Of a stretch of 19,093 nucleotides of DNA, positions 1 through 15,001 are shown piece after piece. A program made the translations under genes and the position numbers. The notes under the pieces were generated by a model that saw only the letters and a program-made list of their open reading frames with translations, searched no databases and was not told the origin of the DNA. The stretch is from a virus (Duplodnaviria > Heunggongvirae > Uroviricota > Caudoviricetes): IMG/VR virus record IMGVR_UViG_2563366800_000003. One strand, 5' to 3'. Numbering within the stretch: position 1 is the first letter of the stretch; each line of letters starts with the position of its first letter.

Positions 1-195
1 CCGCTGTATGAATCCCGCCTGAAGGGAAAGCTGCACGTAATCAGCAAGCGATATACGCAGCGAATTGAGCGGCATAACCTGAATCTGAGGCAGCACCTGG
101 CACGGCTGGGACGGAAGTCGCTGTCGTTCTCAAAATCGGTGGAGCTGCATGACAAAGTCATCGGGCATTATCTGAACATAAAACACTATCAATAA
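1..195 (+). CDS. insB: IS1 transposase InsB, C-terminal 64 codons (5'-partial; start lies outside the window)
   Basis: Frame 1 translates [64 protein letters not shown], stop TAA at 193-195, 15 nt before the IS1 terminus. Not in the ORF track because it has no start codon in the window. Confidence 0.8.
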
Positions 196-210
196 GTTGG
201 AGTCATTACC
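1..210 (+). mobile_element. IS1, right-hand ~210 bp including the terminal inverted repeat; element continues off the left edge of the window
   Basis: Sequence 1-210 matches my memory of the 3' end of IS1 and ends ...CTATCAATAAGTTGGAGTCATTACC at 210; frame 1 is open from the window edge and translates to an InsB C-terminus. Confidence 0.85.
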
Positions 211-270
211 GTCAATACTCTCAGAGGAGTTCAGAAAGTAAAATTCTTACTCACCAGGGAATCTGATCAT

Positions 271-745
271 TGTTCTTGCCCCCTTATTTCCAGACAGGGG
301 GTGTATCTTAAGTTAACGTTACCCGCTGACGTCGATATTCTCGCGGAGAGCGGTAACCCAACGCACTGTGCGGATGGTTTTCATTGTAATGTTCGATCGC
401 CACTGCAAGATTATGCAATGCCGTTCTTACATTCGGTTTCGGCATGAACGCGATGTAGTCTTCCTTCATCGTTTTCACGAACCTTTCTGCCATTCCATTA
501 CTCTGAGGACTGCTGATTGCCGTTGTGCAGGGCTCCAGATTCAACTCTCTGGCGAACTGCCGTGTTTCATGCGCTCTATACGCTGAACCGTTATCTGTCA
601 GCCACTGGATGGACTGTTCCGGTACTTTATCGCCAAAGCGTTTTTCTATCGCTCCTAACATGACATCCTGCACTGTCGCTTTATCGTAACCTCCCGTGCT
701 TGCGGCCCAGTCTATGGCTTCACGATCGCAACAGTCCAGGGCGAT
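271..745 (-). mobile_element. Truncated IS3-family (IS2-group) insertion sequence remnant; terminal repeat near 271-296, N-terminal part of the transposase missing
   Basis: 271-300 (TGTTCTTGCCCCCTTATTTCCAGACA...) resembles the IS2 terminal inverted repeat; the adjacent minus-strand ORF encodes an IS2-like OrfB C-terminus; similarity is lost upstream of ~745. Confidence 0.6.
308..745 (-). pseudogene. IS3-family (IS2-like) OrfB/InsD transposase, C-terminal fragment only
   Basis: Track ORF 308-673 (…[57 protein letters not shown]…[18 protein letters not shown]) matches the IS2 InsD C-terminal domain pattern; the frame stays open upstream to a stop at 746-748 (…[25 protein letters not shown]…) with no plausible N-terminus, so it is truncated. 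Confidence 0.7.
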
Positions 746-1020
746 TCATCTGGGCCAATCCTCGCTCATAACAGGCATTCACTTCAGTCATGGCAGAAAG
801 GTATGCATGCTGGAGAAGTCGTGAAAGAAAAGAAGACTGCTGCGCCGTTTGTCGTCACGTTTATCTTCATTGGCTATGCAAGTCGTAATACAAGGTGGGA
901 CAAAACTGAGACACATAAGGCCTCGCAATGGCTTGCAAGGCTTTACATGTTTTGATGTGGTGGGACGTGTGAGCGCAGTGTTGATGGGGTAATGCTTTGA
1001 ATTAGAAGCGGATTCTTATA

Positions 1021-1066
1021 ATTCGTAATGCGAAGGTCGTAGGTTCGACTCCTATTATCGGCACCA
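1021..1066 (+). other. 46-nt 3' portion of tRNA-Thr(CGU) (thrW-type) without its 5' half; attachment-site core of the downstream integrative element
   Basis: ATTCGTAATGCGAAGGTCGTAGGTTCGACTCCTATTATCGGCACCA matches my recollection of the E. coli thrW 3' end (anticodon CGT, T-arm GGTTCGACTCC, acceptor TATCGGC + CCA). The preceding 30 nt do not form the matching 5' acceptor/D-arm (GCCGATA…), so this is not an intact tRNA gene. Confidence 0.7.
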
Positions 1067-1083
1067 TTCAAACATCTCCCCAA

Positions 1084-4493: not shown

Positions 4494-5554
4494 CCGCCCA
4501 GAAGAAGATATTTTCACTGGCTGGTATGTCGCCAAAATCCAGCAATATGACAGCAAAGTCAGACATTAATACAGCAGATACAAGCAAAGTTTATCATTTT
4601 CTGGTGGTAGGAGCGGATGCCTTAACTATGTCAGAAATTACGGTCGATGGTGTTAGCGTTGAGAAGGTCAGCGGCTATGCCAGAGAATTTCTGGTCGTAG
4701 ATGGCTTTCTCTGCTCGTGTAGTGACTCCACAAAAACCTTCGTCCACGCGCGTGACGTTAACGAAATGAGCGCGATGTACTGTGCTTCTGGTTCTTCCAA
4801 TAGTGAGTTTTCGGAGTCCATAAAAAAGAGCTTGCCGTTATGCGGCAACACGGTTTATGGTTATAAGGCACCTCATAAAACGGGTGCCGGGATTGGCGTC
4901 CTGAAAATTCTGAAGGCGACATATGACGCGCCGAGCGTCTTTTTTTATGTCGTAGGTCTGACTCACCCATTTTTTGGGCGTTGGTGTATAATCCAGCGCC
5001 TTTGTCAATCAATGGTGGCTCAGGCGGGGGCTTCTTCGGAAGCGCCGGTATCCTTCAGAGCCGGTTACGCCAACCCTGTCTGGGCTACCACCAGCGAAAT
5101 TGGCGTTTCCGGTGGTAGCGTAACCTGCTATCTGAAGGAGGCTGCCACATGCTGGCTACTACCCCTACCCAAAAAACGCAATTTATCTGGATTATCGCCG
5201 CAGTTCGCCGCGATTGCCCGACAATTACCGCCAAAATTCATCATATTGCTGCCGAGTCTGAACGCGATGCTCGCCGTTCTCTGGTGCGCGATCACATCTG
5301 CTTTTTTGCTGGTCGTATCCGCATGGAGGTGGCACATGATTAAAACCTACGATGTGCATATGGATCCCCTCGAACGCACAAGCCAGATCATCACACTGAC
5401 AGAAGTGATTAACGACATTCTGGTGAGCAACTCTCCCTCACGAGACGAAAAACTGAAGGCGTTACTCGCGATATTGGACCTCGCCGTTCGTGACGTTCAT
5501 TTCCTGCTGGAAGGTGGACAAATGCCATGCAAAACGGGGGCAACCAATGAATAA
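4487..5554 (+). CDS. Uninterrupted 355-codon ORF, probably composite: plausible N-terminal ~145-aa hypothetical protein and a separate C-terminal small gene (5336-5554, 72 aa, GGAGG RBS) joined by low-quality run-on
   Basis: Good RBS (GGAGG, 4475-4479) before the ATG at 4487; the middle of the frame contains a terminator-like hairpin plus T-run (~4925-4946), a TATAAT-like hexamer (~4985-4990), and a W/C-rich improbable translation; a second gene with a strong RBS occupies another frame at 5149-5343. Confidence 0.35.
5149..5343 (+). CDS. Small hypothetical protein (64 aa)
   Basis: AAGGAGG 8 nt upstream of the ATG at 5149; its stop overlaps the next ATG (ATGATTAA at 5336-5343), indicating translational coupling. 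Confidence 0.45.
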   Translation: MLATTPTQKTQFIWIIAAVRRDCPTITAKIHHIAAESERDARRSLVRDHICFFAGRIRMEVAHD

Positions 5555-6826: not shown

Positions 6827-9583
6827 ATGCGAAACATTGATCTTATCCGTCAGGTTATCAGTGCGTCTGAAAACAACTGGCCTCATGTGCTGGGCTGCCT
6901 GAACATAAATGTCCCTGACTCTCCGCGCCGTCATGCTCCCTGCCCTGCATGTGGGGGCAAAGATCGATTCCGGTTCGATGACAACGGGCGCGGTAGCTTC
7001 ATCTGTAATCAGTGCGGCGCTGGTGATGGGCTGGATTTAATTAAACGCGTAAATAACTGTGACACAACAGAGGCGGCGCTGCTTGCCGCTGATGTTCTGG
7101 GTATTGATTACCGGACAACGGAAACACCAGAAGCCACCAGCCAGAAACGGGAACAACTGGAAACCGAGCGCCAGCGACGCGAACAGGAGCGCCTGAAAAG
7201 GGCAGAGAAGGACGAACAACAAAGACGGGATACGTTTTCCCGTCAGTTTGATGACATGCGCAGAAAGGCTGTAAACGGCAAATCTGATTATCTGGTTGCG
7301 AAAGGGGTAGGTGATTTTACATTCCCAGTGTTGCCCGATGGATCTCTGTTGCTGGCGCTGGTGGATAAATCCGGCGCAGTCACAGCAGCACAGACTATTA
7401 CCTCACATGGTGAAAAAAGACTCCTGACAGGTTCAGCAAAGCGAGGGGCATATCACGCCATAAACGCACCAGAAACAACACAGAGCATCTTAATCGCAGA
7501 AGGGCTGGCAACGGCATTATCTGCCCATTTAATTCGTCCAGAATCGCTGACAGTGGCGGCGATTGATGCCGGGAACCTGTTATATGTCGCCCAGGTACTG
7601 CGGGATAAATTTCCTTCAGCACAAATCATCATTGCTGCGGATAACGACCACAGCGAAGGAAGACAAAACACGGGGAGAATAGCAGCAGAAAAAGCAGCTT
7701 TATCTGTTTCTGGATGGGTGGCATTACCCCCGACAGATCACAAAGCAGACTGGAATGATTACCACCAAAAACACGGCATTAAATGCGCCACAGAAGCGTT
7801 CAATAAGTCAATGTACCAACCACAGGGTAATGGCGTGAAACAGCAGCCACAGACCATTGAGGGAAGCGATTTTAAGGTTATGGATACCGACCCACTGAAA
7901 CCAAGAATAGAAAGCCGCGAGGATGGTATTTATTGGGTATCTCCGAGAGCTGACAGCCAGAGTGGAGAAATCATCAATAACGAAAGCTGGTTATGTTCTC
8001 CGTTAAGCGTTATCGGTACTGGCAGAGACGATAAAGACCAGTATCTCATTCTTCGCTGGCTGTCGTTTGGTTCTGAAACGCCGACAACCGCTGCCATTCC
8101 ACTGGCTGATATTGGTGAACGTGAAGGATGGCGCACACTTAAAGCTGGTGGGGTAAATGTCACGACCAAAAGCAGCCTCAGAGCAATACTGGCAGACTGG
8201 CTACAACGCAGTGGCTCTCGTGAATTGTGGCGTGTTGCTCATGCCACTGGCTGGCAATGCGGAGCGTACATCATGCCTGATGGGGAAATCATCGGAACAC
8301 CTGAAAATCCTGTGCTGTTCAGCGGGAGAAGCTCAGCCGCAGCCGGATATACCGTCTCAGGGAGCGCGAAAAGCTGGCGTGATAACGTGGCGCGTCTGGC
8401 CTTTGGTAACTATTCAATGATGACCGGGATCGGCGCAGCACTGGCAGCGCCATTGATTGGGCTGGTGGGCGCTGACGGGTTCGGCATTCATTTCTATGAG
8501 CAGTCGAGCGCAGGTAAGACCACCACGGCAAACGTGGCGAGCAGCTTATACGGCAACCCTGATTTATTGCGGCTGACGTGGTACGGAACCGCGCTGGGGC
8601 TGGCAAATGAAGCCGCCGCCCACAATGACGGACTAATACCGCTTGATGAAGTTGGTCAGGGCGCTGATCCTGTCAGTGTTTCACAGTCTGCCTATGCGTT
8701 ATTTAACGGTGTAGGGAAACTGCAAGGCGCTAAAGATGGTGGAAACCGGGATCTAAAACGCTGGCGTACAGTGGCAATCAGCACTGGAGAAATGGATTTA
8801 GAAACATTTATCGCTACTTCCGGGCGAAAAACCAAAGCCGGGCAACTGGTGCGACTGCTGAATATTCCGTTGAGTAAAGCAGTACGCTTTCACGATTACC
8901 AGAACGGAAAACAGCACGCAGACGCACTGAAAGACGCTTACCAGCATCACCACGGCGCAGCCGGGCGTGAGTGGATTAAATGGCTGGCAGACCACCAGCA
9001 ACAGGCAATTAAAACTGTTCGTGACTGCGAAAGCAGATGGAGAAGTCTGATCCCATCCGATTATGGTGAGCAGGTTCACCGTGTAGCCGCGCGATTTGCC
9101 ATTCTGGAGGCCGCATTGCTGTTAGGCGAGGTTGTAACAGGCTGGGATGCTCAGACATGCCGTGATGCGATACAGCACAGCTATAACGCATGGTTGCGCG
9201 AGTTCGGCACAGGTAACAAAGAACATCAGCAGATTATTGAACAAACGGAGGCATTTCTTAATGCCTATGGGCTTAGCCGTTTTGCACCATTTCCATACAG
9301 CCCGGCAGATTTGCCCATCAAAGATTTGGCCGGATACCGTCAGCGTGGAGAACATGACGAAAGCCCAATGATTTTCTACACATTCCCGGCCACATTTGAA
9401 AAGGAGATCGCATGTGGTTTCAACGCAAAACAGTTTGCTGAAGTGTTGAAAAAAGCCGGGATGCTAACCCCACCAAACAGCGGTCGTGGATACCAAAGAA
9501 AATCACCACGTATTCAGGGACGACAAATAAACGTTTATGTACTCAATTACCAGCCAGGAGATTATAACTCATCTGAAGAATGA
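6827..9583 (+). CDS. Primase-helicase replication protein (zinc-binding N-terminus, Toprim primase domain, C-terminal P-loop NTPase/DUF927-like domain), P4 alpha/PICI Pri-Rep type
   Basis: 918-aa ORF; CxxC…CxxC zinc ribbon (CPACGGKDRF…FICNQCGAG); Toprim signature (ILIAEGLATA … IIIAADNDHSEGRQ); P-loop-like SAGKTT with downstream hydrophobic-DE Walker B (GLIPLDEVGQ); iteron array immediately 3'. Confidence 0.9.
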   Translation: MRNIDLIRQVISASENNWPHVLGCLNINVPDSPRRHAPCPACGGKDRFRFDDNGRGSFICNQCGAGDGLDLIKRVNNCDTTEAALLAADVLGIDYRTTETPEATSQKREQLETERQRREQERLKRAEKDEQQRRDTFSRQFDDMRRKAVNGKSDYLVAKGVGDFTFPVLPDGSLLLALVDKSGAVTAAQTITSHGEKRLLTGSAKRGAYHAINAPETTQSILIAEGLATALSAHLIRPESLTVAAIDAGNLLYVAQVLRDKFPSAQIIIAADNDHSEGRQNTGRIAAEKAALSVSGWVALPPTDHKADWNDYHQKHGIKCATEAFNKSMYQPQGNGVKQQPQTIEGSDFKVMDTDPLKPRIESREDGIYWVSPRADSQSGEIINNESWLCSPLSVIGTGRDDKDQYLILRWLSFGSETPTTAAIPLADIGEREGWRTLKAGGVNVTTKSSLRAILADWLQRSGSRELWRVAHATGWQCGAYIMPDGEIIGTPENPVLFSGRSSAAAGYTVSGSAKSWRDNVARLAFGNYSMMTGIGAALAAPLIGLVGADGFGIHFYEQSSAGKTTTANVASSLYGNPDLLRLTWYGTALGLANEAAAHNDGLIPLDEVGQGADPVSVSQSAYALFNGVGKLQGAKDGGNRDLKRWRTVAISTGEMDLETFIATSGRKTKAGQLVRLLNIPLSKAVRFHDYQNGKQHADALKDAYQHHHGAAGREWIKWLADHQQQAIKTVRDCESRWRSLIPSDYGEQVHRVAARFAILEAALLLGEVVTGWDAQTCRDAIQHSYNAWLREFGTGNKEHQQIIEQTEAFLNAYGLSRFAPFPYSPADLPIKDLAGYRQRGEHDESPMIFYTFPATFEKEIACGFNAKQFAEVLKKAGMLTPPNSGRGYQRKSPRIQGRQINVYVLNYQPGDYNSSEE

Positions 9584-9607
9584 GCTTCTTCATGTGCGTA
9601 GAAAAGG

Positions 9608-9722
9608 TGTTGGTTCAGTTGGTTCAGTTGGTTCAATTTGTAAAGAGTATTGTTTTATAAGGATTTTATTCTTTTTATTGAACCAACACTGAACCAACAA
9701 CACGGTATTTTGAACCAACACA
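9608..9722. repeat. Iteron-type origin module: three tandem (G)TTGGTTCA repeats (9608-9637), a 41-bp AT-rich spacer, three inverted TGAACCAAC repeats (9679-9719)
   Basis: Seen directly; sits immediately downstream of the primase-helicase gene, the usual place for a satellite/plasmid ori; an inverted copy occurs at 15638-15762. Confidence 0.6.
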
Positions 9723-10040: not shown

Positions 10041-10072
10041 TGCCACCAGCTACTGAGTGGTGGCATTTTTTT
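10041..10072 (+). terminator. Rho-independent terminator (8-bp stem TGCCACCA/TGGTGGCA, 9-nt loop, 7 T's)
   Basis: Perfect stem and T-run seen directly at 10041-10072. Confidence 0.6.
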
Positions 10073-10128: not shown

Positions 10129-10152
10129 TATAATAACTGTTGTTTTATACAG
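10129..10152 (+). promoter_or_regulatory. Candidate -10 hexamer TATAAT (10129-10134) followed by a LexA-box-like CTGT-N8-ACAG (10137-10152) upstream of the cargo operon
   Basis: aaCTGTtgttttatACAGtt fits the CTGT-N8-ACAG core of SOS boxes with a mostly AT spacer; flanking bases deviate from the TACTGT…ACAGTA consensus; no convincing -35. Confidence 0.35.
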
Positions 10153-10167: not shown

Positions 10168-10341
10168 ATGGCTATTTCAGTAAAGCCAGTATTGATAAGT
10201 GAGAAGCAAATGGAAGCGATAAAGAAAATTCAGGAGGAGCAGCGTAAAAAATCAGAGGTAGGAGTTGCGCCAACGATCCACGAAATTGCTCGGGGATTAA
10301 TGGATAAGGCGCTGGCTTACACTTTAACTGGACGTGGGTAA
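10168..10341 (+). CDS. Small hypothetical protein (57 aa), first gene of the cargo operon; possibly a small DNA-binding or adaptor protein
   Basis: Strong RBS (AAGGGGGCG) before the ATG at 10168; [57 protein letters not shown]; below the 60-aa cut-off of the ORF track; its stop lies 4 nt before the next ATG. Confidence 0.5.
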
Positions 10342-10345
10342 ATCA

Positions 10346-11782
10346 ATGGCTACGTGGCAACAGGGTATTAATTCTGGTGGTTTTCTGGCTGGCATCGGTA
10401 CGCAAAATGAGAATGCGCCAAAGGCAAGCGACATTAACGCAACGCTTGGTCTGATCCGCGAAAACAATGAACTGGCTCGCTCAGGTGCAAATAACGTTGG
10501 TCTGACCGCGTTACGTGGTCTGGCTGGAGTTGCTGATATTTATAAGCAGCAGCAACAGCAGGAGCGTAAAGCGGCATTCCAGAAAGGTTATGCAGATGCT
10601 TATGCGTCCGGCGACAGGGAGCAGATGCGTAATCTTATTACAGCATTCCCAGAAGAGTTTGAGGAAGTCCGTAAAGGGATGAGTTATGTCGATGATGCTC
10701 AAAGGGATGATTATGGCAATCTGGCGCTCAAAGCACAGGTAGCCTCATCGCTTGGTCCGGGAGCATTTGGCAGGTTCATGATGGATAATGAGCAGGAGAT
10801 GCGTCGTTTAGGTATCCCTCCAGAAACTATTGCTGAAATGCAGGTTAATGACCCGCAGGGCTTCCAGCATTTCGCAGGTAATCTGGCGTTGTTTTCTCTC
10901 GGTCATGAGAAGTACTTCGATATCAAAGATCGAATGGAGGGTCGGGATATTGAGCGTGGCGAGTTGGCAGAGACGATTCGCAGCAATAAAGCTGGGGAAG
11001 GTTTACAGGCGCAAAGCATTGCTGTTAGCCGTGAAAACTCTCTGCGCACTGCTGGAGGTGCTGTTCCTGCATCTGTTAAAGAATATCAATATTTCAACAG
11101 CCTGTCTCCAGAGCAACAAAAGACATATCTTCGTGTTCGAGGCCGTCCTGCTGCTGGCGGGGAGAATGTTGTGCAACTGGCAGATGGTAGAACGGTAACG
11201 GTTGGTCGGAAGCTTCACGGCGCTGGTGCTAATGCGTTCTACGAAGGAATAGACAACGAGGGCAATATGATTCGCGTCCCCGCAAGTTCTATTGCTGCTC
11301 CGGCTACATCGGCAGCTAATGCGCAGAATTACGAAATGAAGAAAGATCTTGATGCAATTTCTGGCGCATCAATTGACGATCTTGGCTTCATGACAGGTAT
11401 TACAGGTTCTTCAGGTTCTTTTGCTCTTGGTGCAGATATTCGTAGCCGGGCATCTGGTGTTGAGGAGAGGAAACTATACAACGCTGCACAGCGAATCATG
11501 GGCAAAATGCAAAATCAGGGGATTGCGGCAGCCCGAGATATGGGGGCATCTGGCATCAACACCGAAGCAGAGGCCAATAGGTATTTTCAGGGTATGCCAA
11601 AGCCTGATTTCTCAAGCCCTGAAGCACTACAACAATCAATGCGCGACATTCAGCAATATACCGACAATTACAACCAGCAATATAACGTTAATGTTGGTAA
11701 ATCTCAGCGGCAGCAATCTCAACCTGCACAGGTATCACAGCCAGCAGCCAGCAGTAACTTTTCTTCACTATGGGGTGATTAA
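10346..11782 (+). CDS. Hypothetical protein (~478 aa; track frame opens at GTG 10334), low-complexity Gly/Ala/Gln-rich, predicted largely helical, no catalytic motif recognised
   Basis: Long ORF with consistent coding character; stop TAA overlaps the next start (TAATG at 11780-11784); N-terminal Gly-rich segment, Q-rich tail (…[19 protein letters not shown]). Confidence 0.8.
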
Positions 11783-13887
11783 TGGCTAAAGCATGGAAAG
11801 ATGTTATCGCTTCTCCACAGTATCAGGCGTTAGCACCAGAACAAAAAGCGCAGGCTCAGGAGCAATACTTCAATGAAGTCGTGGCCCCGCAAGCCGGAGA
11901 AAGTGTAGAGCAGGCTAAGCAGGCTTTTTATGCTGCCTATCCACTGCCATCAACGAATGAAATAGACCGATCCCAATCAGCAACTCAAAATATTCAACAT
12001 ACATCATCTGATAATTCTCTTGCGTCAGGGTATGCAAAGTTAGCTACTCAGCAAAGAGAGGGGCTTGAGCGTTCAGCAGAACAGGGAGCCAGTCTTGGGG
12101 CTGCGATGCGCGATGCTATAACAGGCGAAAGCCGAATGACTCCAGAGATGGAGAGACTGCAAAATGTCGCCTCTGCCCCAGAATTGAACTCACTAAGCAT
12201 GGATGCCTTAAAGGCTGGATGGTCTCAACTTTTCGGCTCTGACGCGTCTCAGGAAAAGATTCTTCAGGGAATGGGGGCGACATTAAGGCAGGATGAGAAG
12301 GGGAATACTATCGTTTCTCTGCCATCAGGTGATTATGCCCTAAACAAGCCGGGTTTATCACCGCAAGACCTGACTTCGTTTCTTGCTAATGCGTTGGCGT
12401 TTACACCAGCGGGCAGGGCTGGAACGGTGCTTGGTGCCATAGGAAAATCAGCAGCTACAGATTTAGCACTACAGGGAGCCACCAGCCTTGCTGGTGGAGA
12501 AGATATTGATCCGTTACAAACGGTAATTTCTGCTGGCATTGGTGGTATTGGTAAGGGGCTGGAAAATACAGCGAGTGCGGTTTCGAGGGCTGTTCGTGGT
12601 GATATGTCGCCTGAAGCAAAGGCTGCTGTCGACTTTGCATCGGAAAGAAATCTGCCGTTAATGACCAGTGACATGCTGAAAGATAAAACCTTTATGCAGA
12701 GTCAGGCTCAGACATTAGGCGAAAGACTTCCTTTTTTTGGAACCGGTAAGAACCGACTGAATCAACAACAAGCACGAGAAAATTTAGTCAGAACATTTAG
12801 CGATGGTCTGGGGGGAATTTCAGATAAACAGCTTTATGAGTCTGCGACTAAAGGGCAGCAAAAATTCATTGAGGCAGCAGGAAAGCGATATAACCGCATA
12901 ATTGACGCTATGGGGGATACCCCTGTCGATCTCTCAAACACGGTAAAAGCTATCGACAATCAGATTGCCGTGTTAAGCCGACCGGGCAAATCTCAGGATA
13001 GAGCCGCGGTAAAAGTCTTGCAGCAATTTAAAGACGATATCACCAGCGGACCCAATGACCTGCGTCTGGCGAGAGAAAACAGAACTGACCTTCGAAAGCG
13101 GTTCATGAATTCAAACGAGACTGTTGATAAAGACACGCTCCAGAAAGCCAGCGATATTGTCTACAAGGCATATACAGCGGATATGAAAAAAGCAGTATCC
13201 CAAAAACTAGGCTCAGAAGAAGCTACCAATATGTCTAGGGTTGATCGCTCATGGGCTAGATTCAATGACATGATGGGAAGAACGCGCGTTCAAAAGGCAA
13301 TAGCCAGCGGCAAGGCCACGCCTGAGGATGTAACAAAACTCGTTTTTAGCCAAAACCCATCAGAACGTTCTCAGCTTTACAGGCTTCTGGATGACAATGG
13401 TAGGCAAAACGCACGAGCCGCCATAGTTCAGAATGCTGTAGATAAGGCGACTGATCCGTCTGGAAATATCAGTGTTGAGAAGTTTATTAATGCGTTACAC
13501 CGGAACAGGAAGCAATCAGCAACTTTCTTTAAAGGCGTATATGGAAAGGAACTGGACGGCGTTATTAAATACCTCAATGATACAAGACACGCGGCAAAAG
13601 CGAACGTTCAAAACTTAAATGGTCAGCAGCTTTATGGATTGTTAGTTGGTGGTGGCATCATAAACGCAGCAGTATTAGCGGGGATGCTAAAAACGGCTGC
13701 GTTTGTTGTTCCTGCTGCTGGTGTCGTAGGCGGAGCAGCGAAGGCATACGAAAGCCCTGTTATACGAAATGCCTTGTTACGTCTGGCAAATACGCCAAAA
13801 GGTAGCACAGCATATGACAGAGCGATCAGTACGGTCACACAATCGCTCACCAGAGTCGCACAGGCATCACAAAAAGAATCTCAATAA
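11782..13887 (+). CDS. Hypothetical protein (701 aa), helical/low-complexity with a C-terminal Gly/Ala-rich hydrophobic hairpin (residues ~617-653); candidate membrane-inserting protein
   Basis: Translationally coupled to the upstream gene, GGGGTGA RBS; hydrophobic LYGLLVGGGIINAAVLAGMLKTAAFVVPAAGVVGGAA near the C-terminus; no nucleotide-binding or nuclease motif seen. Confidence 0.8.
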   Translation: MAKAWKDVIASPQYQALAPEQKAQAQEQYFNEVVAPQAGESVEQAKQAFYAAYPLPSTNEIDRSQSATQNIQHTSSDNSLASGYAKLATQQREGLERSAEQGASLGAAMRDAITGESRMTPEMERLQNVASAPELNSLSMDALKAGWSQLFGSDASQEKILQGMGATLRQDEKGNTIVSLPSGDYALNKPGLSPQDLTSFLANALAFTPAGRAGTVLGAIGKSAATDLALQGATSLAGGEDIDPLQTVISAGIGGIGKGLENTASAVSRAVRGDMSPEAKAAVDFASERNLPLMTSDMLKDKTFMQSQAQTLGERLPFFGTGKNRLNQQQARENLVRTFSDGLGGISDKQLYESATKGQQKFIEAAGKRYNRIIDAMGDTPVDLSNTVKAIDNQIAVLSRPGKSQDRAAVKVLQQFKDDITSGPNDLRLARENRTDLRKRFMNSNETVDKDTLQKASDIVYKAYTADMKKAVSQKLGSEEATNMSRVDRSWARFNDMMGRTRVQKAIASGKATPEDVTKLVFSQNPSERSQLYRLLDDNGRQNARAAIVQNAVDKATDPSGNISVEKFINALHRNRKQSATFFKGVYGKELDGVIKYLNDTRHAAKANVQNLNGQQLYGLLVGGGIINAAVLAGMLKTAAFVVPAAGVVGGAAKAYESPVIRNALLRLANTPKGSTAYDRAISTVTQSLTRVAQASQKESQ

Positions 13888-13891
13888 CTGG

Positions 13892-13916
13892 TTAGCCATG
13901 GATGGCTAATTTTTGT
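13892..13916 (+). terminator. Rho-independent terminator (TTAGCCA-TGGA-TGGCTAA followed by TTTTTGTTCTTT) ending the cargo operon; overlaps the 3' end of the convergent membrane-protein gene
   Basis: 7-bp stem, 4-nt loop, T-rich tail directly after the 701-aa stop codon. Confidence 0.5.
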
Positions 13917-14325
13917 TCTTTGCTCTCATCCATAGGTAAAGAAGGGAAAGAACAAGACAAAAAACAGAGAATAGATAACCTACCTCATATGGTGCGCCAA
14001 AAAAATTAGCTATTGATACGGGCAAAAAAGCTGAAGCGATCAAAATTGAAAGGCAAAAAATAAGCCCAGTAATATAGTTTATTAAATTCTTAAATGAGAA
14101 ACGTTTTGCTTGATTTACGGTCTTAACGAACGATCGCTTAACGACGGATAAAAGCAAATAGATGGCGACAGTTGCTAATACCCCTTTCCACCAGTCTGGA
14201 TATAGTTTTGCGACAATCAGACCAAGTAAAACCATGATGACAGCCTGAGCATTCACACCAACCCTCCCTTTAGCTTTGTTTAGAATGGCAATCATCATAT
14301 ATCCAAGACATGGCATTTGGTACAT
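13906..14325 (-). CDS. Small polytopic inner-membrane protein (predicted 4 TM helices; 139 aa from the first ATG, ~117 aa if the GTG at 14259 with GGGAGGG RBS is used), convergent to the cargo operon
   Basis: Hydrophobic segments VIMVLLGLIVAKLY, VLATVAIYLLLSVV, ITGLIFCLSILIASAFLPV, YLFSVFCLVLSLLYLWM; strongly AT-rich codon usage unlike its neighbours. Confidence 0.65.
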   Translation of the reverse strand: MYQMPCLGYMMIAILNKAKGRVGVNAQAVIMVLLGLIVAKLYPDWWKGVLATVAIYLLLSVVKRSFVKTVNQAKRFSFKNLINYITGLIFCLSILIASAFLPVSIANFFGAPYEVGYLFSVFCLVLSLLYLWMRAKNKN

Positions 14326-14443
14326 AGCTTGGGTCGGGATTTCAAATCCGCTCCCAGTTGATGGGGTCGTTACAGTACGCGCATATCCGCTTTATGTGAA
14401 ACAGGAAGATTTTTCTGATATCACTGCCACAGCAAAACACCAA

Positions 14444-14467
14444 TTTCGAGACAAGTACGCGCGCGAG
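14444..14467. repeat. Copy a of the TTTCG(A/G)GACAAGTACG(Y)GCGCG repeat family
   Basis: Seen directly; related copies at 14731-14758 and 16120-16150, shorter CAGTACGCGC/CAGTACGCAC variants at 14374-14384 and 14505-14518. Confidence 0.5.
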
Positions 14468-14730
14468 GGGTATCAGTTGCAAAATTTTTTGCAACTGCGT
14501 CCGACCAGTACGCACACGATGGCGGGGGATACCATGAAACTGTTCTCTACATAAGTCAGAGTGGTGGTGATGTGTTGATTATCGGCGTATATGCGCACAG
14601 GACGCGCTATGACAATGTTTTATGCGGGTACACCAATCACATGTATCTGGTGTGATAAATCGCGTTACATGACATCTCATGTTGTGCTGGTGGTTATCAC
14701 GACGTTCTGAATCTGGCTTTTGTCTGATAT

Positions 14731-14758
14731 TTTGCGACAAGTACGTGCGCGTAGCATC
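14731..14758. repeat. Copy b of the GACAAGTACG(Y)GCGCG(CG)TAGCA repeat family
   Basis: TTTGCGACAAGTACGTGCGCGTAGCATC; shares the upstream TCTGATAT motif with copy a. Confidence 0.5.
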
Positions 14759-14779: not shown

Positions 14780-15001
14780 TCATTTTGTGACCAATGCGAT
14801 AAGTAGCGGGATAAGCATTGATAAAATCAACAGGCCGATGATCCACTTTTGATTTTCACTGGCCTTATCTCTATTTTCATCAATCTTATCAATAATTCGA
14901 CGCTCCAAGCCGTGCATATCACCGCGAATGGCAATCATCTCATTGCGAACATCCGAGAAGTGGTTGGCTTGATGTTCAATGTGTGGCGTTCTGCCTTTCA
15001 T
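14780..15001 (-). CDS. Small protein (73 aa) with charged helical N-terminus and a single C-terminal transmembrane anchor; XhlA-like architecture
   Basis: …DKIDENRDKASENQKWIIGLLILSMLIPLLIALVTK; GAGG 9 nt upstream of the ATG; family assignment is by architecture only. Confidence 0.5.
   Translation of the reverse strand: MKGRTPHIEHQANHFSDVRNEMIAIRGDMHGLERRIIDKIDENRDKASENQKWIIGLLILSMLIPLLIALVTK

What the first reader, a model, noticed from the sequence alone, without database searches (positions are those of the whole stretch)
10168..13916. Three-gene cargo operon of large low-complexity proteins with no family I can assign: top candidate for an undescribed system
The 57-aa, ~478-aa and 701-aa genes are translationally coupled, follow a putative SOS-type promoter, and end at a clean terminator. 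They sit in the accessory region bracketed by the inverted iteron modules. The two large proteins are Gly/Ala/Gln-rich, look predominantly helical, and show no Walker, nuclease, protease or glycosidase motif. Competing hypotheses: (1) a pore-forming bacteriocin-like toxin, given the SOS box, C-terminal hydrophobic hairpin and convergent small membrane protein in the classic immunity position; (2) virion ejection/internal-type proteins borrowed from a podovirus, since the sizes and the downstream membrane protein recall a gene 20 / gene 16 / sieA arrangement; (3) a membrane-targeting abortive-infection or inter-satellite competition effector.
Basis: inference. Interest (0 to 1): 0.85.

Follow-up and report, generated by a model that had tools for sequence, protein, structure and literature searches.

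The report
Phage ejection proteins on a satellite
The two large genes are copies of phage P22's ejection proteins gp20 and gp16, which build the channel that carries phage DNA into a cell; they sit in a known kind of phage-parasitising island, which may therefore fit its helper phage's particles with its own DNA-entry machinery, though that has not been tested.

Summary
The operon is real, but it is not an unassignable system. The 478-aa protein is a full-length P22 gp20 homolog (Pfam Inj_translocase, 3e-82; phrog_917, 6e-199). The 701-aa protein is a full-length P22 gp16 homolog (phrog_770, 2e-163). RefSeq already names both as ejection/injection proteins. The convergent 4-helix membrane gene sits exactly where P22 keeps sieA, and a sister island carries a true sieA homolog in that slot.

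The host element is a 16.7-kb island with EcCIMP1's att core and a near-identical primase. EcCIMP1 is a PICI mobilised by the P22-like phage Kapi1 (Pick et al. 2025). That paper did not recognise these genes as ejection proteins.

The module is core to the island family rather than cargo. About 1 in 10 complete E. coli genomes carry it, the genes are under purifying selection (dN/dS 0.12-0.20), and their alleles are highly mosaic on a near-clonal backbone.

In other genera the same 57-aa leader gene precedes tape-measure or T7-type internal virion proteins.

My best guess, which is inferred, is that the satellite loads a cognate gp20+gp16 pair into helper virions to control DNA entry, possibly to evade SieA-type exclusion. 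The headline claim and hypothesis 1 are not supported.

The parts
1050..1059 (+). attL core TCCTATTATC, inside a partial tRNA-Thr 3' end; left end of the island
   Evidence: Exact 10-mer found twice in the window against 0.01 expected. It is identical to the att core published for EcCIMP1. ARAGORN finds no intact tRNA; the sequence is.
6827..9583 (+). Primase/helicase (Zn-ribbon, Toprim, DUF927) of the island; marks the backbone family
   Evidence: Pfam. At least 99% identical in 357 E. coli genomes. 99.3% identical to the EcCIMP1 primase.
9602..9722 (.). Iteron module A (GGTTCAGTT repeats, an AT-rich spacer, then inverted TGAACCAAC repeats); presumed origin
   Evidence: The same module is present in EcCIMP1, strain H9 and an Edwardsiella island.
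10049..10071 (+). Terminator-like hairpin plus T7 run that separates the primase unit from the ejection-protein operon
10129..10152 (+). Promoter -10 (TATAAT, 10129-10134) and LexA-box-like palindrome CTGTTGTTTTATACAG (10137-10152)
   Evidence: Identical in EcCIMP1 and strain H9. LexA-like 16-mers occupy the same position in three other genera. Function untested.
10168..10341 (+). 57-aa leader gene, island-specific; possibly a small DNA-binding regulator
   Evidence: Homologs occur only in primase islands, always at the head of the virion-protein module. The model has two helices at pLDDT 74, with no significant Foldseek PDB match (best E about 6) and no Pfam hit.
10346..11782 (+). P22 gp20-family ejection protein (478 aa)
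   Evidence: PF16928 Inj_translocase 3.3e-82. phrog_917 6e-199 over the full length. 58% identical to P22 gp20. dN/dS 0.12 between islands.
11782..13887 (+). P22 gp16-family ejection protein (701 aa) with a C-terminal hydrophobic stretch at residues 617-650
   Evidence: phrog_770 1.7e-163 over the full length. All but one of the 120 listed homologs carry PF26808 Phage_P22_gp16. 68% identical to phage N7 gp16 and 33% to Sf6/L gp16. dN/dS 0.19-0.20.
13890..13921 (.). Terminator-like hairpin plus T-run shared by the convergent genes
13906..14325 (-). 139-aa (RefSeq: 129-aa) four-helix membrane protein in the sieA position; candidate entry-exclusion protein
   Evidence: Four hydrophobic segments. 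Same geometry as P22 gene 16/sieA. A homolog lies in the sieA slot of a Yersinia P22-like prophage. A true sieA homolog replaces it in a sister island. Not related to SieA by sequence.
15081..15536 (-). 151-aa conserved island gene next to iteron module B; its N-terminus looks like a ribbon-helix-helix
   Evidence: Homologs at 65-97% identity in islands of E. coli, Pectobacterium and 'Enterobacterales 8AC'. No Pfam hit.
15634..15766 (.). Iteron module B, an inverted copy of module A; closes the bracket around the module
   Evidence: 55 nt at 95% complementarity. Conserved in relatives.
17777..17786 (+). attR core TCCTATTATC; right end of the 16.7-kb island

Best explanation
Identity (shown). 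The operon is the ejection-protein module of an EcCIMP1-like phage satellite, a PICI with a P4-type early region, integrated at tRNA-Thr. Its parts are:
- a 57-aa island-specific leader gene;
- a P22 gp20 homolog;
- a P22 gp16 homolog;
- a convergent membrane-protein gene in the place where P22 keeps its entry-exclusion gene sieA.

Mechanism (inferred).
1. When a P22-like helper prophage is induced, the operon is switched on from its own promoter, which may be LexA-controlled.
2. The island's cognate gp20+gp16 pair is assembled into helper-built procapsids, using the helper's gp7 and gp14.
3. The pair is then ejected from the particle at the next cell, where it forms the periplasmic and inner-membrane part of the DNA conduit.
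4. In this way the satellite, not the helper, decides how DNA crosses the recipient's envelope. The likely benefit is getting past entry blocks such as SieA, which acts on exactly these two proteins.
5. The slot gene, expressed in the resident state, would exclude incoming P22-like particles.
For: Identity:
- Family matches are very strong, and RefSeq uses the same names.

Satellite context:
- The att core is identical to EcCIMP1's.
- The backbone is int, alpA, AntA, Ash and a primase 99% identical to EcCIMP1's.
- EcCIMP1 is experimentally induced and transduced by the P22-like phage Kapi1.

Function is maintained:
- The ORFs are intact and dN/dS is 0.12 (gp20) and 0.19-0.20 (gp16) between islands.
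- The module occurs in essentially all islands of the family (357 vs 360 genomes).
- The three gp16 types total about 550 of 5,426 genomes.
- The same leader + gp20 + gp16 + convergent-gene layout occurs in Pectobacterium, Edwardsiella and a Serratia-type island.

Feasibility (Leavitt et al. 2024):
- Foreign E-proteins are incorporated into P22 virions and work.
- gp7 is exchangeable on its own.
- gp16 and gp20 function only as a cognate pair. That is exactly the minimal pair kept in this window.

Link to exclusion:
- SieA-escape mutations map to gp16 and gp20.
- gp20 and gp16 are hypervariable and mosaic on a backbone about 99% identical.
- The slot after gp16 holds sieA or other envelope proteins.

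Generalisation:
- In other genera the leader gene precedes tape-measure proteins or T7-type internal virion proteins, which are the equivalent DNA-delivery proteins of other phage types.
Against: - No experiment shows that island E-proteins enter virions.
- The LexA box is a single consensus match that is not significant by count. It is imperfect in two of four genera.
- Pick et al. found that alpA induction needs the helper, not DNA damage alone. They did not assay this operon.
- EcCIMP1 transduction by Kapi1 is very inefficient, so the module clearly does not guarantee efficient transfer.
- Only 2 of 21 EcCIMP1 strains carry a Kapi1-like prophage.
- Both tested SieA types excluded most E-protein sets, so escape by allele swapping is not automatic.
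- One island has gp16 alone, and gp16 alone would be non-cognate with a helper's gp20.
- One E. coli island has a metalloprotease instead of E-proteins after the leader gene.
Confidence: 0.5

Rival explanations
1. Interference or exclusion role. The island's gp16 and gp20 act against phages rather than for the island. Either they are assembled into helper or foreign P22-like virions as non-cognate subunits, so the progeny cannot deliver DNA, or they sit in the resident cell's envelope and disturb the incoming conduit. Either way they would contribute to superinfection immunity together with the slot gene.
For: - P22 carrying a single non-cognate gp16 or gp20 makes non-infectious particles, even though the foreign gp16 is assembled.
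- One island carries gp16 alone.
- EcCIMP1 adds to superinfection immunity against Kapi1 by an unknown mechanism, with no known defence system on the island.
- Satellites commonly interfere with their helpers (authors' discussion).
Against: - Kapi1 titres from induced lysogens are not reduced by EcCIMP1.
- Virion poisoning would cripple the island's own transfer, because it uses the same particles.
- A promoter repressed in the resting state (LexA-like box) fits poorly with constitutive exclusion.
- Most islands keep a complete cognate pair or the whole gp14-gp7-gp20-gp16 set. That completeness is not needed to poison virions.
Confidence: 0.23
2. Packaging or morphogenesis role, as suggested by Pick et al. 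The post-primase genes would redirect helper packaging or head assembly towards island DNA.
For: - The genes occupy the position where other PICIs keep their packaging module.
- The gp14 homolog (DUF2824/phrog_651) is labelled 'head morphogenesis'.
Against: - The proteins are homologs of ejection proteins, not of terminase, capsid or scaffold.
- The window's island lacks the gp14 homolog altogether.
- Relatives that do have TerS-like genes carry them in addition to the delivery proteins.
Confidence: 0.05
3. Non-functional relic. A fragment of a P22-like prophage was captured by recombination at the shared thrW region and is carried passively.
For: - P22-like prophage fragments lie next to such islands: gp16 and a slot gene sit outside the island end in strain B18271.
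- RefSeq flags the gene as a pseudogene in some genomes.
Against: - The pseudogene flag is an artefact. The ORF is an intact 701 codons in the window, L001, L002, L009 and L010.
- dN/dS is 0.12-0.20.
- The module has its own conserved promoter, leader gene and terminators.
- The architecture is kept across genera.
- Repeated allele replacement has always kept full-length genes.
Confidence: 0.06
4. One reading: an SOS-induced pore-forming bacteriocin with a convergent immunity gene.
For: - There is a LexA-like box.
- gp16 has a hydrophobic C-terminal stretch.
- P22 gp16 associates with membranes and lets DNA into liposomes, according to work cited.
- A small membrane-protein gene lies in the immunity-like position.
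Against: - Both proteins are full-length members of virion ejection-protein families.
- There is no colicin, pyocin or lysis-protein domain.
- The same arrangement in real phages is gene 20 / gene 16 / sieA.
Confidence: 0.03

Closest known systems
Phage P22 (Lederbergvirus) genes 20, 16 and sieA
   Same: - The proteins are homologous. gp20 is 58% identical to P22 gp20. gp16 is 30% identical to P22 gp16 and 68% to the E. coli Lederbergvirus N7 protein.
- The gene order is the same, with overlapping stop and start codons.
- A convergent envelope-protein gene follows about 20 nt after gene 16, with a shared terminator.
   Different: - There is no portal, coat, scaffold, tail, gp14 or gp7 gene in the element.
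- The operon has its own promoter and a 57-aa leader gene not found in the phages examined, instead of lying in a late operon.
- The slot protein is unrelated to SieA.
EcCIMP1, the PICI of E. coli MP1 (Pick, Stadel and Raivio, ISME J 2025, PMC11773190)
   Same: - Same att core and tRNA-Thr site.
- Same backbone. The integrase protein is identical and the primase 99.3% identical; alpA, AntA, Ash, PerC and PRiA4_ORF3 are also shared.
- Same promoter, leader gene and inverted iteron modules.
   Different: - EcCIMP1 is 20 kb and carries gp14 + gp7 + gp20 + a 906-aa gp16 with a lytic transglycosylase domain, then a lipoprotein gene.
- The window's island is 16.7 kb and has only gp20 + gp16 of other allele types (26% identity for gp20; no BLASTP-detectable similarity for gp16) and a 4-helix membrane protein.
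- The paper reports 'no phage-like structural genes' and calls these genes DNA-transfer-like candidates for packaging.
Satellite phage P4
   Same: - Integrase, an AlpA/Vis-type regulator and a primase-helicase with a zinc ribbon.
- A C4/CI-type antisense RNA in the early region.
- Two separated sets of replication-protein iterons, resembling P4 ori and crr. This comparison is from my own knowledge and was not tested here.
   Different: - There are no sid, delta or psu capsid-size and transactivation genes.
- The helper type is a P22-like podovirus rather than P2.
- The only virion genes are ejection proteins.
PICIs and cf-PICIs with morphogenesis or packaging modules (e.g. EcCICFT073 Rpp, capsid-forming PICIs)
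   Same: A satellite-encoded module downstream of the replication gene modifies helper-derived particles for the satellite's benefit.
   Different: Those modules act on packaging specificity or build capsids. This one encodes the proteins that leave the virion to build the DNA-entry conduit. I found no description of such a module in the searchable literature.
Colicin-type SOS operons (toxin plus immunity)
   Same: A LexA-like box in front of a large gene, followed by a small membrane-protein gene.
   Different: There is no toxin, receptor-binding or lysis domain. The proteins belong to virion ejection-protein families.

Membership tests
P22 gp20 ejection protein (Pfam PF16928 Inj_translocase / phrog_917) | N-terminal Inj_translocase domain above the Pfam gathering score | tested here: met
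   275.9 bits against a cut-off of 29.7, E 3.3e-82, residues 16-227.
P22 gp20 ejection protein (Pfam PF16928 Inj_translocase / phrog_917) | Full-length similarity to phage gp20 proteins, and a gene placed immediately upstream of gene 16 | tested here: met
   phrog_917 covers residues 5-482 of the 482-aa ORF, E 6e-199. 58% identity to P22 gp20 over 441 aa. The stop overlaps the gp16 start.
P22 gp20 ejection protein (Pfam PF16928 Inj_translocase / phrog_917) | Present in virions and released on infection | not testable with these tools
   Needs particle proteomics.
P22 gp16 ejection protein (Pfam PF26808 / phrog_770) | Full-length profile match to the gp16 family | tested here: met
   phrog_770 covers residues 19-699, E 1.7e-163. 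The closest database homologs carry precomputed PF26808. The local Pfam copy gave no hit, apparently because it lacks that model.
P22 gp16 ejection protein (Pfam PF26808 / phrog_770) | Membrane association and DNA transfer across the inner membrane | tested here: inconclusive
   A hydrophobic stretch at residues 617-650 is seen in the sequence. The activity itself cannot be tested here.
SieA superinfection-exclusion protein (phrog_7745), for the 139-aa gene | Sequence similarity, including the motif FxRYPxEAxxFNK (Leavitt 2024) | tested here: not met
   BLASTP against P22 SieA gives E 0.94. hhalign against a SieA alignment gives probability 0.1%. No SieA family among its PHROG hits. The motif is absent from the sequence.
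SieA superinfection-exclusion protein (phrog_7745), for the 139-aa gene | Gene convergent to, and directly downstream of, gene 16; a multi-pass inner-membrane protein | tested here: met
   Geometry is identical to P22. Four hydrophobic segments and four predicted helices. A sister island has a true sieA homolog in the same slot.
SieA superinfection-exclusion protein (phrog_7745), for the 139-aa gene | Blocks DNA injection by P22-like phages | not testable with these tools
   Needs plating and K+ efflux assays.
EcCIMP1-like PICI | att core TCCTATTATC flanking the element at tRNA-Thr | tested here: met
   Found at 1050 and 17777, against 0.01 expected. The core lies in a tRNA-Thr 3' fragment.
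EcCIMP1-like PICI | int, alpA and primase backbone | tested here: met
   Pfam. 98.5-100% protein identity to EcCIMP1 for int, alpA, AntA and the primase.
EcCIMP1-like PICI | Excision and transfer only in the presence of an induced helper phage | not testable with these tools
   Shown for EcCIMP1 with Kapi1 by Pick et al., not for this island.
LexA (SOS) regulated promoter | CTGT-N8-ACAG box overlapping a promoter | tested here: inconclusive
   One perfect box directly after a TATAAT. The count is not significant. Related 16-mers at the same position in other genera have 0-1 mismatches in the CTG/CAG positions.
Ribbon-helix-helix regulators, for the 57-aa leader | Strand-helix-helix fold or a family profile match | tested here: inconclusive
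   No Pfam hit and no significant PDB sequence match. The AlphaFold model has two helices at pLDDT 74 and no modelled strand. Foldseek gives no significant match.
Colicin-like bacteriocin operon | Toxin domain and lysis gene | tested here: not met
   No such domain in Pfam, PHROGs or NCBIfam. There is no lysis-gene ORF in the operon.

The most novel reading that the evidence does not exclude
A widespread family of enterobacterial satellites carries, as its only virion genes, the proteins that leave the helper's particle to build the DNA conduit into the next cell. These are P22 gp20 and gp16 in this window, and tape-measure proteins or T7-type internal core proteins behind the same leader gene in other genera.

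On this reading the satellites re-equip helper particles with their own DNA-entry machinery. They pair it with a swappable entry-exclusion gene. This would let them cross barriers such as SieA that block the helper's own particles. It would be a mode of molecular piracy, acting on genome delivery rather than on capsid size or packaging, that I could not find described.
Probability: 0.35. Interest if true: 0.8.

Novelty: new variant of a known kind. Interest (0 to 1): 0.5.

Why it matters
Known satellites pirate their helpers by changing capsid size, packaging specificity or gene expression. A satellite that supplies the ejection proteins would add control of DNA entry to that list.

- It would give a concrete candidate mechanism for two open observations on EcCIMP1: its unexplained contribution to superinfection immunity, and its lack of any recognisable packaging module.
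- It would offer a natural explanation for the extreme mosaicism of gp16 and gp20 in P22-like phages.
- The module is present in roughly one in ten complete E. coli genomes, so it bears on how often such islands, and the defence or virulence-regulating genes they carry, move between strains.
- It is directly testable in the published MP1/Kapi1 system and with the P22 hybrid-phage tools of Leavitt et al.

If the module turns out to be only borrowed phage genes with no role in the satellite, the finding is ordinary.

Tried and rejected
- **Species-representative genome scan.** A scan for gp20 N-terminal relatives first failed because the 8-sequence alignment had no conserved stretch. With a 5-sequence alignment it returned 70 pattern matches but no true relative. 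One genome per species is a poor sample for strain-variable elements, so I used exact-protein context look-ups instead.
- **Solved structures.** Sequence searches of the PDB gave no significant match for gp20, gp16 or the 57-aa protein.
- **57-aa protein structure.** The prediction gave a two-helix model with no significant Foldseek match. The ribbon-helix-helix idea therefore stays a guess.
- **Membrane protein structure.** The model had pLDDT 59, too poor for a fold search, so none was run.
- **The 139-aa protein as a divergent SieA.** Rejected by BLASTP and profile-profile comparison. A tblastn search against 50,697 phage records gave no match.
- **Known defence systems.** PADLOC and NCBIfam gave no hits for any cassette protein.
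- **Homology bait for cointegration with the helper.** Rejected, because the island and helper alleles are only about 25% identical in MP1 and the genes are under protein-level purifying selection.
- **Literature.** Searches for satellites or PICIs with ejection proteins found only the EcCIMP1 paper and general reviews.

Full report
**1. The observation**

The three ORFs exist as described.
- They lie at 10168-10341 (57 aa), 10346-11782 (478 aa from the ATG that RefSeq also uses) and 11782-13887 (701 aa).
- The first stop is 4 nt from the next ATG. The second junction is an overlapping TAATG.
- A hairpin with a T-run follows the last stop at 13890-13921. Another at 10049-10071 closes the upstream primase unit.
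- A perfect TATAAT (10129-10134) is followed by CTGTTGTTTTATACAG (10137-10152). This is the only CTGT-N8-ACAG in the window. With 0.18 expected, and 35 of 200 shuffles reaching one match, the count alone proves nothing.
- The inverted iteron modules are real: 9602-9722 and 15634-15766, with a 55-nt core at 95% complementarity.

**2. What the proteins are**

The claim that no family can be assigned is wrong.
- The 478-aa protein matches Pfam Inj_translocase ('DNA/protein translocase of phage P22 injectosome') at 3e-82. It matches phrog_917 over its whole length at 6e-199.
- The 701-aa protein matches phrog_770 ('DNA transfer protein') over its whole length at 2e-163.
- Of its 120 listed database homologs, all but one carry the precomputed domain PF26808, Phage_P22_gp16. 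My local Pfam copy seems to lack that model, which explains the blank.
- By tblastn the 701-aa protein aligns end to end with gp16 of Sf6, L, ST64T and ST104 at about 33% identity. It aligns with the E. coli Lederbergvirus N7 protein at 66-68%.
- The 478-aa protein is 58% identical to P22 gp20.
- RefSeq names the two genes 'phage DNA ejection protein' and 'injection protein'.
- No solved structure matches by sequence. No defence-system model matches either.

**3. The element that carries them**

The window holds a 16.7-kb island bounded by the 10-mer TCCTATTATC at 1050 and 17777.
- Its genes are an integrase, AlpA, an AntA/B antirepressor, DUF4222, an Ash-family region containing a C4-type antisense RNA and isrK, a Zn-ribbon/Toprim/DUF927 primase, PerC and a PRiA4_ORF3 protein.
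- This is the family of EcCIMP1, a 19,963-bp PICI of E. coli MP1 described by Pick, Stadel and Raivio (ISME J 2025).
- EcCIMP1 has the same att core at tRNA-Thr. It excises only when the P22-like temperate podovirus Kapi1 is induced, and Kapi1 transduces it at very low frequency.
- My locus L003 is EcCIMP1 itself. Its integrase protein is identical to the window's and its primase is 99.3% identical.
[quoted passage not shown] They mentioned the genes downstream of the primase only as resembling 'DNA transfer proteins' and DUF2824, and as candidates for packaging.
- I found no other paper that links satellites with ejection proteins.

**4. The module is core, not cargo**

- In EcCIMP1 and in strain H9 the same promoter and leader gene are followed by homologs of P22 gp14 (phrog_651), gp7 (phrog_598), gp20 and gp16.
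- The window's island goes from the leader gene straight to gp20.
- Among 5,426 complete E. coli genomes, the primase is present (at least 80% coverage) in 360 and the iteron-promoter-leader region in 357.
- The three gp16 types I met occur in 398 genomes (the window's type), 72 (the EcCIMP1 type with a transglycosylase domain) and 84 (a third type). Some of these copies may lie in prophages.
- The island-type gp14+gp7 occurs in 253 genomes.
- The backbone is nearly clonal (the primase is at least 99% identical in 357 genomes). The E-protein genes are not:
  - there are at least five mosaic gp20 alleles, 26-95% identical segment by segment;
  - there are three gp16 types with no BLASTP-detectable similarity to one another.
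- Within an allele the genes evolve under purifying selection. dN/dS is 0.12 for gp20 and 0.19-0.20 for gp16, against 0.05-0.08 for the primase. All copies examined are intact.
- The 'pseudogene, missing C-terminus' flag in some RefSeq records is an annotation artefact.

**5. The convergent gene**

- In P22, gene 16 is followed 22 nt later by the convergent gene sieA. The window has the same geometry.
- The 139-aa protein has four hydrophobic segments.
- It is not a SieA homolog:
  - BLASTP gives E 0.94;
  - hhalign gives probability 0.1%;
  - the motif FxRYPxEAxxFNK is absent;
  - no phage record matches it.
- Its few homologs tell the story:
  - in Yersinia enterocolitica one sits in the sieA slot of a complete P22-like prophage;
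  - in Edwardsiella tarda one sits after gp20-gp16 in a DUF927-primase island.
- A sister E. coli island (strain CS5L) has 99%- and 96%-identical gp20 and gp16, but a different integrase and integration site. Its slot holds a 204-aa protein that is a SieA homolog: BLASTP against P22 SieA gives 6e-8, it carries the motif NRYPGEA, and phrog_7745 matches at 2e-4. Twenty codons of the window-type gene remain beside it.
- Other islands have, in the same slot:
  - a lipoprotein (EcCIMP1);
  - secreted proteins (strain 779 and Pectobacterium, 36% identical to each other);
  - a single-pass protein.
- The slot is therefore a swappable site for envelope proteins. At least one of them belongs to a proven entry-exclusion family.

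**6. Mechanism**

What follows is inference.

Leavitt et al. (mBio 2024) showed four things:
- Escape mutations lie in the C-terminal parts of gp16 and gp20.
- Foreign E-proteins are incorporated into P22 virions and work.
- gp7 can be exchanged alone, whereas gp16 and gp20 function only as a cognate pair. P22 gp7 with Sf6 gp16+gp20 is fully viable. Single swaps are dead, even though the foreign gp16 is assembled.

The window's module is exactly that minimal exchangeable unit. The fuller modules add gp7 and gp14.

In MP1, the island's gp14 is 83% identical to the helper's, gp7 is 57% identical, and gp20 and gp16 are only about 25% identical.

I therefore think the most likely role is as follows. 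The island loads its own gp20+gp16 into helper-built particles and so specifies the periplasmic and inner-membrane step of DNA entry into the next cell. The likely advantage is escape from entry blocks.

The own promoter, with its LexA-like box, would time expression with prophage induction. Similar 16-mers sit at the same place in three other genera, two of them with one mismatch in the critical CTG/CAG positions.

I put this explanation at about 0.5.

**7. Rivals**

- **Interference.** The main rival is that the proteins work against phages, as non-cognate subunits that spoil virions or as resident-cell components of exclusion.
  - For it: the lethality of single non-cognate swaps, an island with gp16 alone, and EcCIMP1's unexplained contribution to superinfection immunity.
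  - Against it: Kapi1 titres are unchanged by EcCIMP1, and poisoning would hit the island's own vehicle.
- **Packaging.** A packaging role does not fit the protein families.
- **Relic.** A passive relic does not fit the selection and conservation data.
- **Bacteriocin.** A bacteriocin operon has only positional resemblance.

**8. Beyond the window**

Homologs of the 57-aa leader (57-87% identical) occur in primase islands of other genera, and I did not find the gene in any of the phage and prophage loci I compared. It heads the following modules:

| Locus | Genes after the leader |
|---|---|
| Serratia-type island | gp20 + gp16 |
| Pectobacterium | gp20 + gp16 |
| 'Enterobacterales 8AC' | gp16 alone |
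| Erwinia | 1,050-aa tape measure protein (phrog_1107, E = 0) behind a 108-aa gene |
| Klebsiella quasipneumoniae | 671-aa tape-measure/transglycosylase protein plus a Dit-like protein |
| Metagenomic island | T7-gp14-like internal virion protein and three further large virion proteins |
| E. coli strain B18271 (exception) | metalloprotease |

These are single loci, not a census. The pattern nevertheless suggests a general rule: the leader gene is followed by the DNA-delivery proteins of whatever helper type the island uses.

The inverted iteron modules bracket the module in E. coli and in Edwardsiella alike. From my own knowledge this resembles the ori and crr arrangement of P4, which I did not test.

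**9. Verdict**

- The finding is real but mislabelled.
- What remains open, and is worth an experiment, is why a satellite keeps these proteins and no other virion proteins.
- Interest is 0.5. Novelty is a new variant of a known kind.

Noticed in passing
Loci L013, L014, L016-L020 (other genera): Homologs of the 57-aa leader gene sit downstream of a DUF927 primase. They are followed by DNA-delivery proteins of different phage types: P22 gp20/gp16, gp16 alone, tape measure proteins (with or without a Dit-like protein), or T7-gp14-like and other internal virion proteins.
   Followed up: partly
window 9602-9722 and 15634-15766; L002, L003, L007: Two inverted copies of an iteron module (iterons, AT-rich spacer, inverted iterons) bracket the ejection-protein module plus variable genes. 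This holds in E. coli islands and in an Edwardsiella island. It may correspond to the ori/crr pair of P4, but its function is unknown.
   Followed up: partly
window 4868-4945 and 5008-5095 (+): Rfam finds isrK (67.8 bits) and a C4 antisense RNA (79.9 bits) inside the ORF annotated as an Ash-family protein. This suggests a P4/P1-type RNA immunity region, and that the long 'Ash' ORF may be partly spurious.
   Followed up: no
window 1-1070 and 17790-19093: The island is not next to an intact tRNA. Only the 3' part of tRNA-Thr is present (about 1027-1066), and ARAGORN finds no tRNA. An IS integrase-core remnant lies at 308-673 (-). A CbtA/CbeA toxin-antitoxin pair lies at 18174-18853 (-). Together these suggest a tandem array of elements at this site.
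   Followed up: partly
L010 15908-16589 (E. coli CS5L): A sister island with a different integrase, inserted between yicC and dinD, has a sieA homolog in the slot after gp16. The first 20 codons of the window-type membrane gene are left beside it, a direct trace of slot swapping.
   Followed up: yes
L003 17086-17784 (EcCIMP1): The gene after gp16 in EcCIMP1 encodes a 232-aa lipoprotein (lipobox LAGC) with no family match. It is a candidate for the published but unexplained superinfection immunity of EcCIMP1.
   Followed up: no
L001 17783-19598; L002 14310-16125: RefSeq marks the gp16 gene as a pseudogene 'missing C-terminus' in some genomes, although the ORF is an intact 701 codons. This is probably an artefact of a shorter family model.
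   Followed up: yes
L022 7579-8423 and 12411-14733 (E. coli B18271): This is an exception to the rule. The leader gene is followed by a 223-aa HExxH metalloprotease and then PerC. A gp16 gene 100% identical to strain H9's, plus its slot gene, lies beyond the island's right end, next to a truncated acyltransferase gene.
   Followed up: no
L021 3315-5666 (E. coli AH20I049): The same leader and ejection-protein module occurs on a backbone whose replication protein has a DUF5906 C-terminal part instead of DUF927. Only the first ~835 bp are shared, at 93% identity. About 110 genomes show this partial match.
   Followed up: no
window 14437-14465, 14723-14751, 16113-16141: A 29-nt direct repeat family (TCTGATATTTTGCGACAAGTACGTGCGCG, 72-100% identical) is scattered in the region between the membrane gene and PerC. 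Its meaning is unknown.
   Followed up: no
window 15081-15536 (-) and 14780-15001 (-): The 151-aa gene next to iteron module B is conserved in islands of several genera and has a ribbon-helix-helix-like N-terminus but no family match. The 73-aa gene matches phrog_6324 (5e-11) and weakly a holin family.
   Followed up: partly
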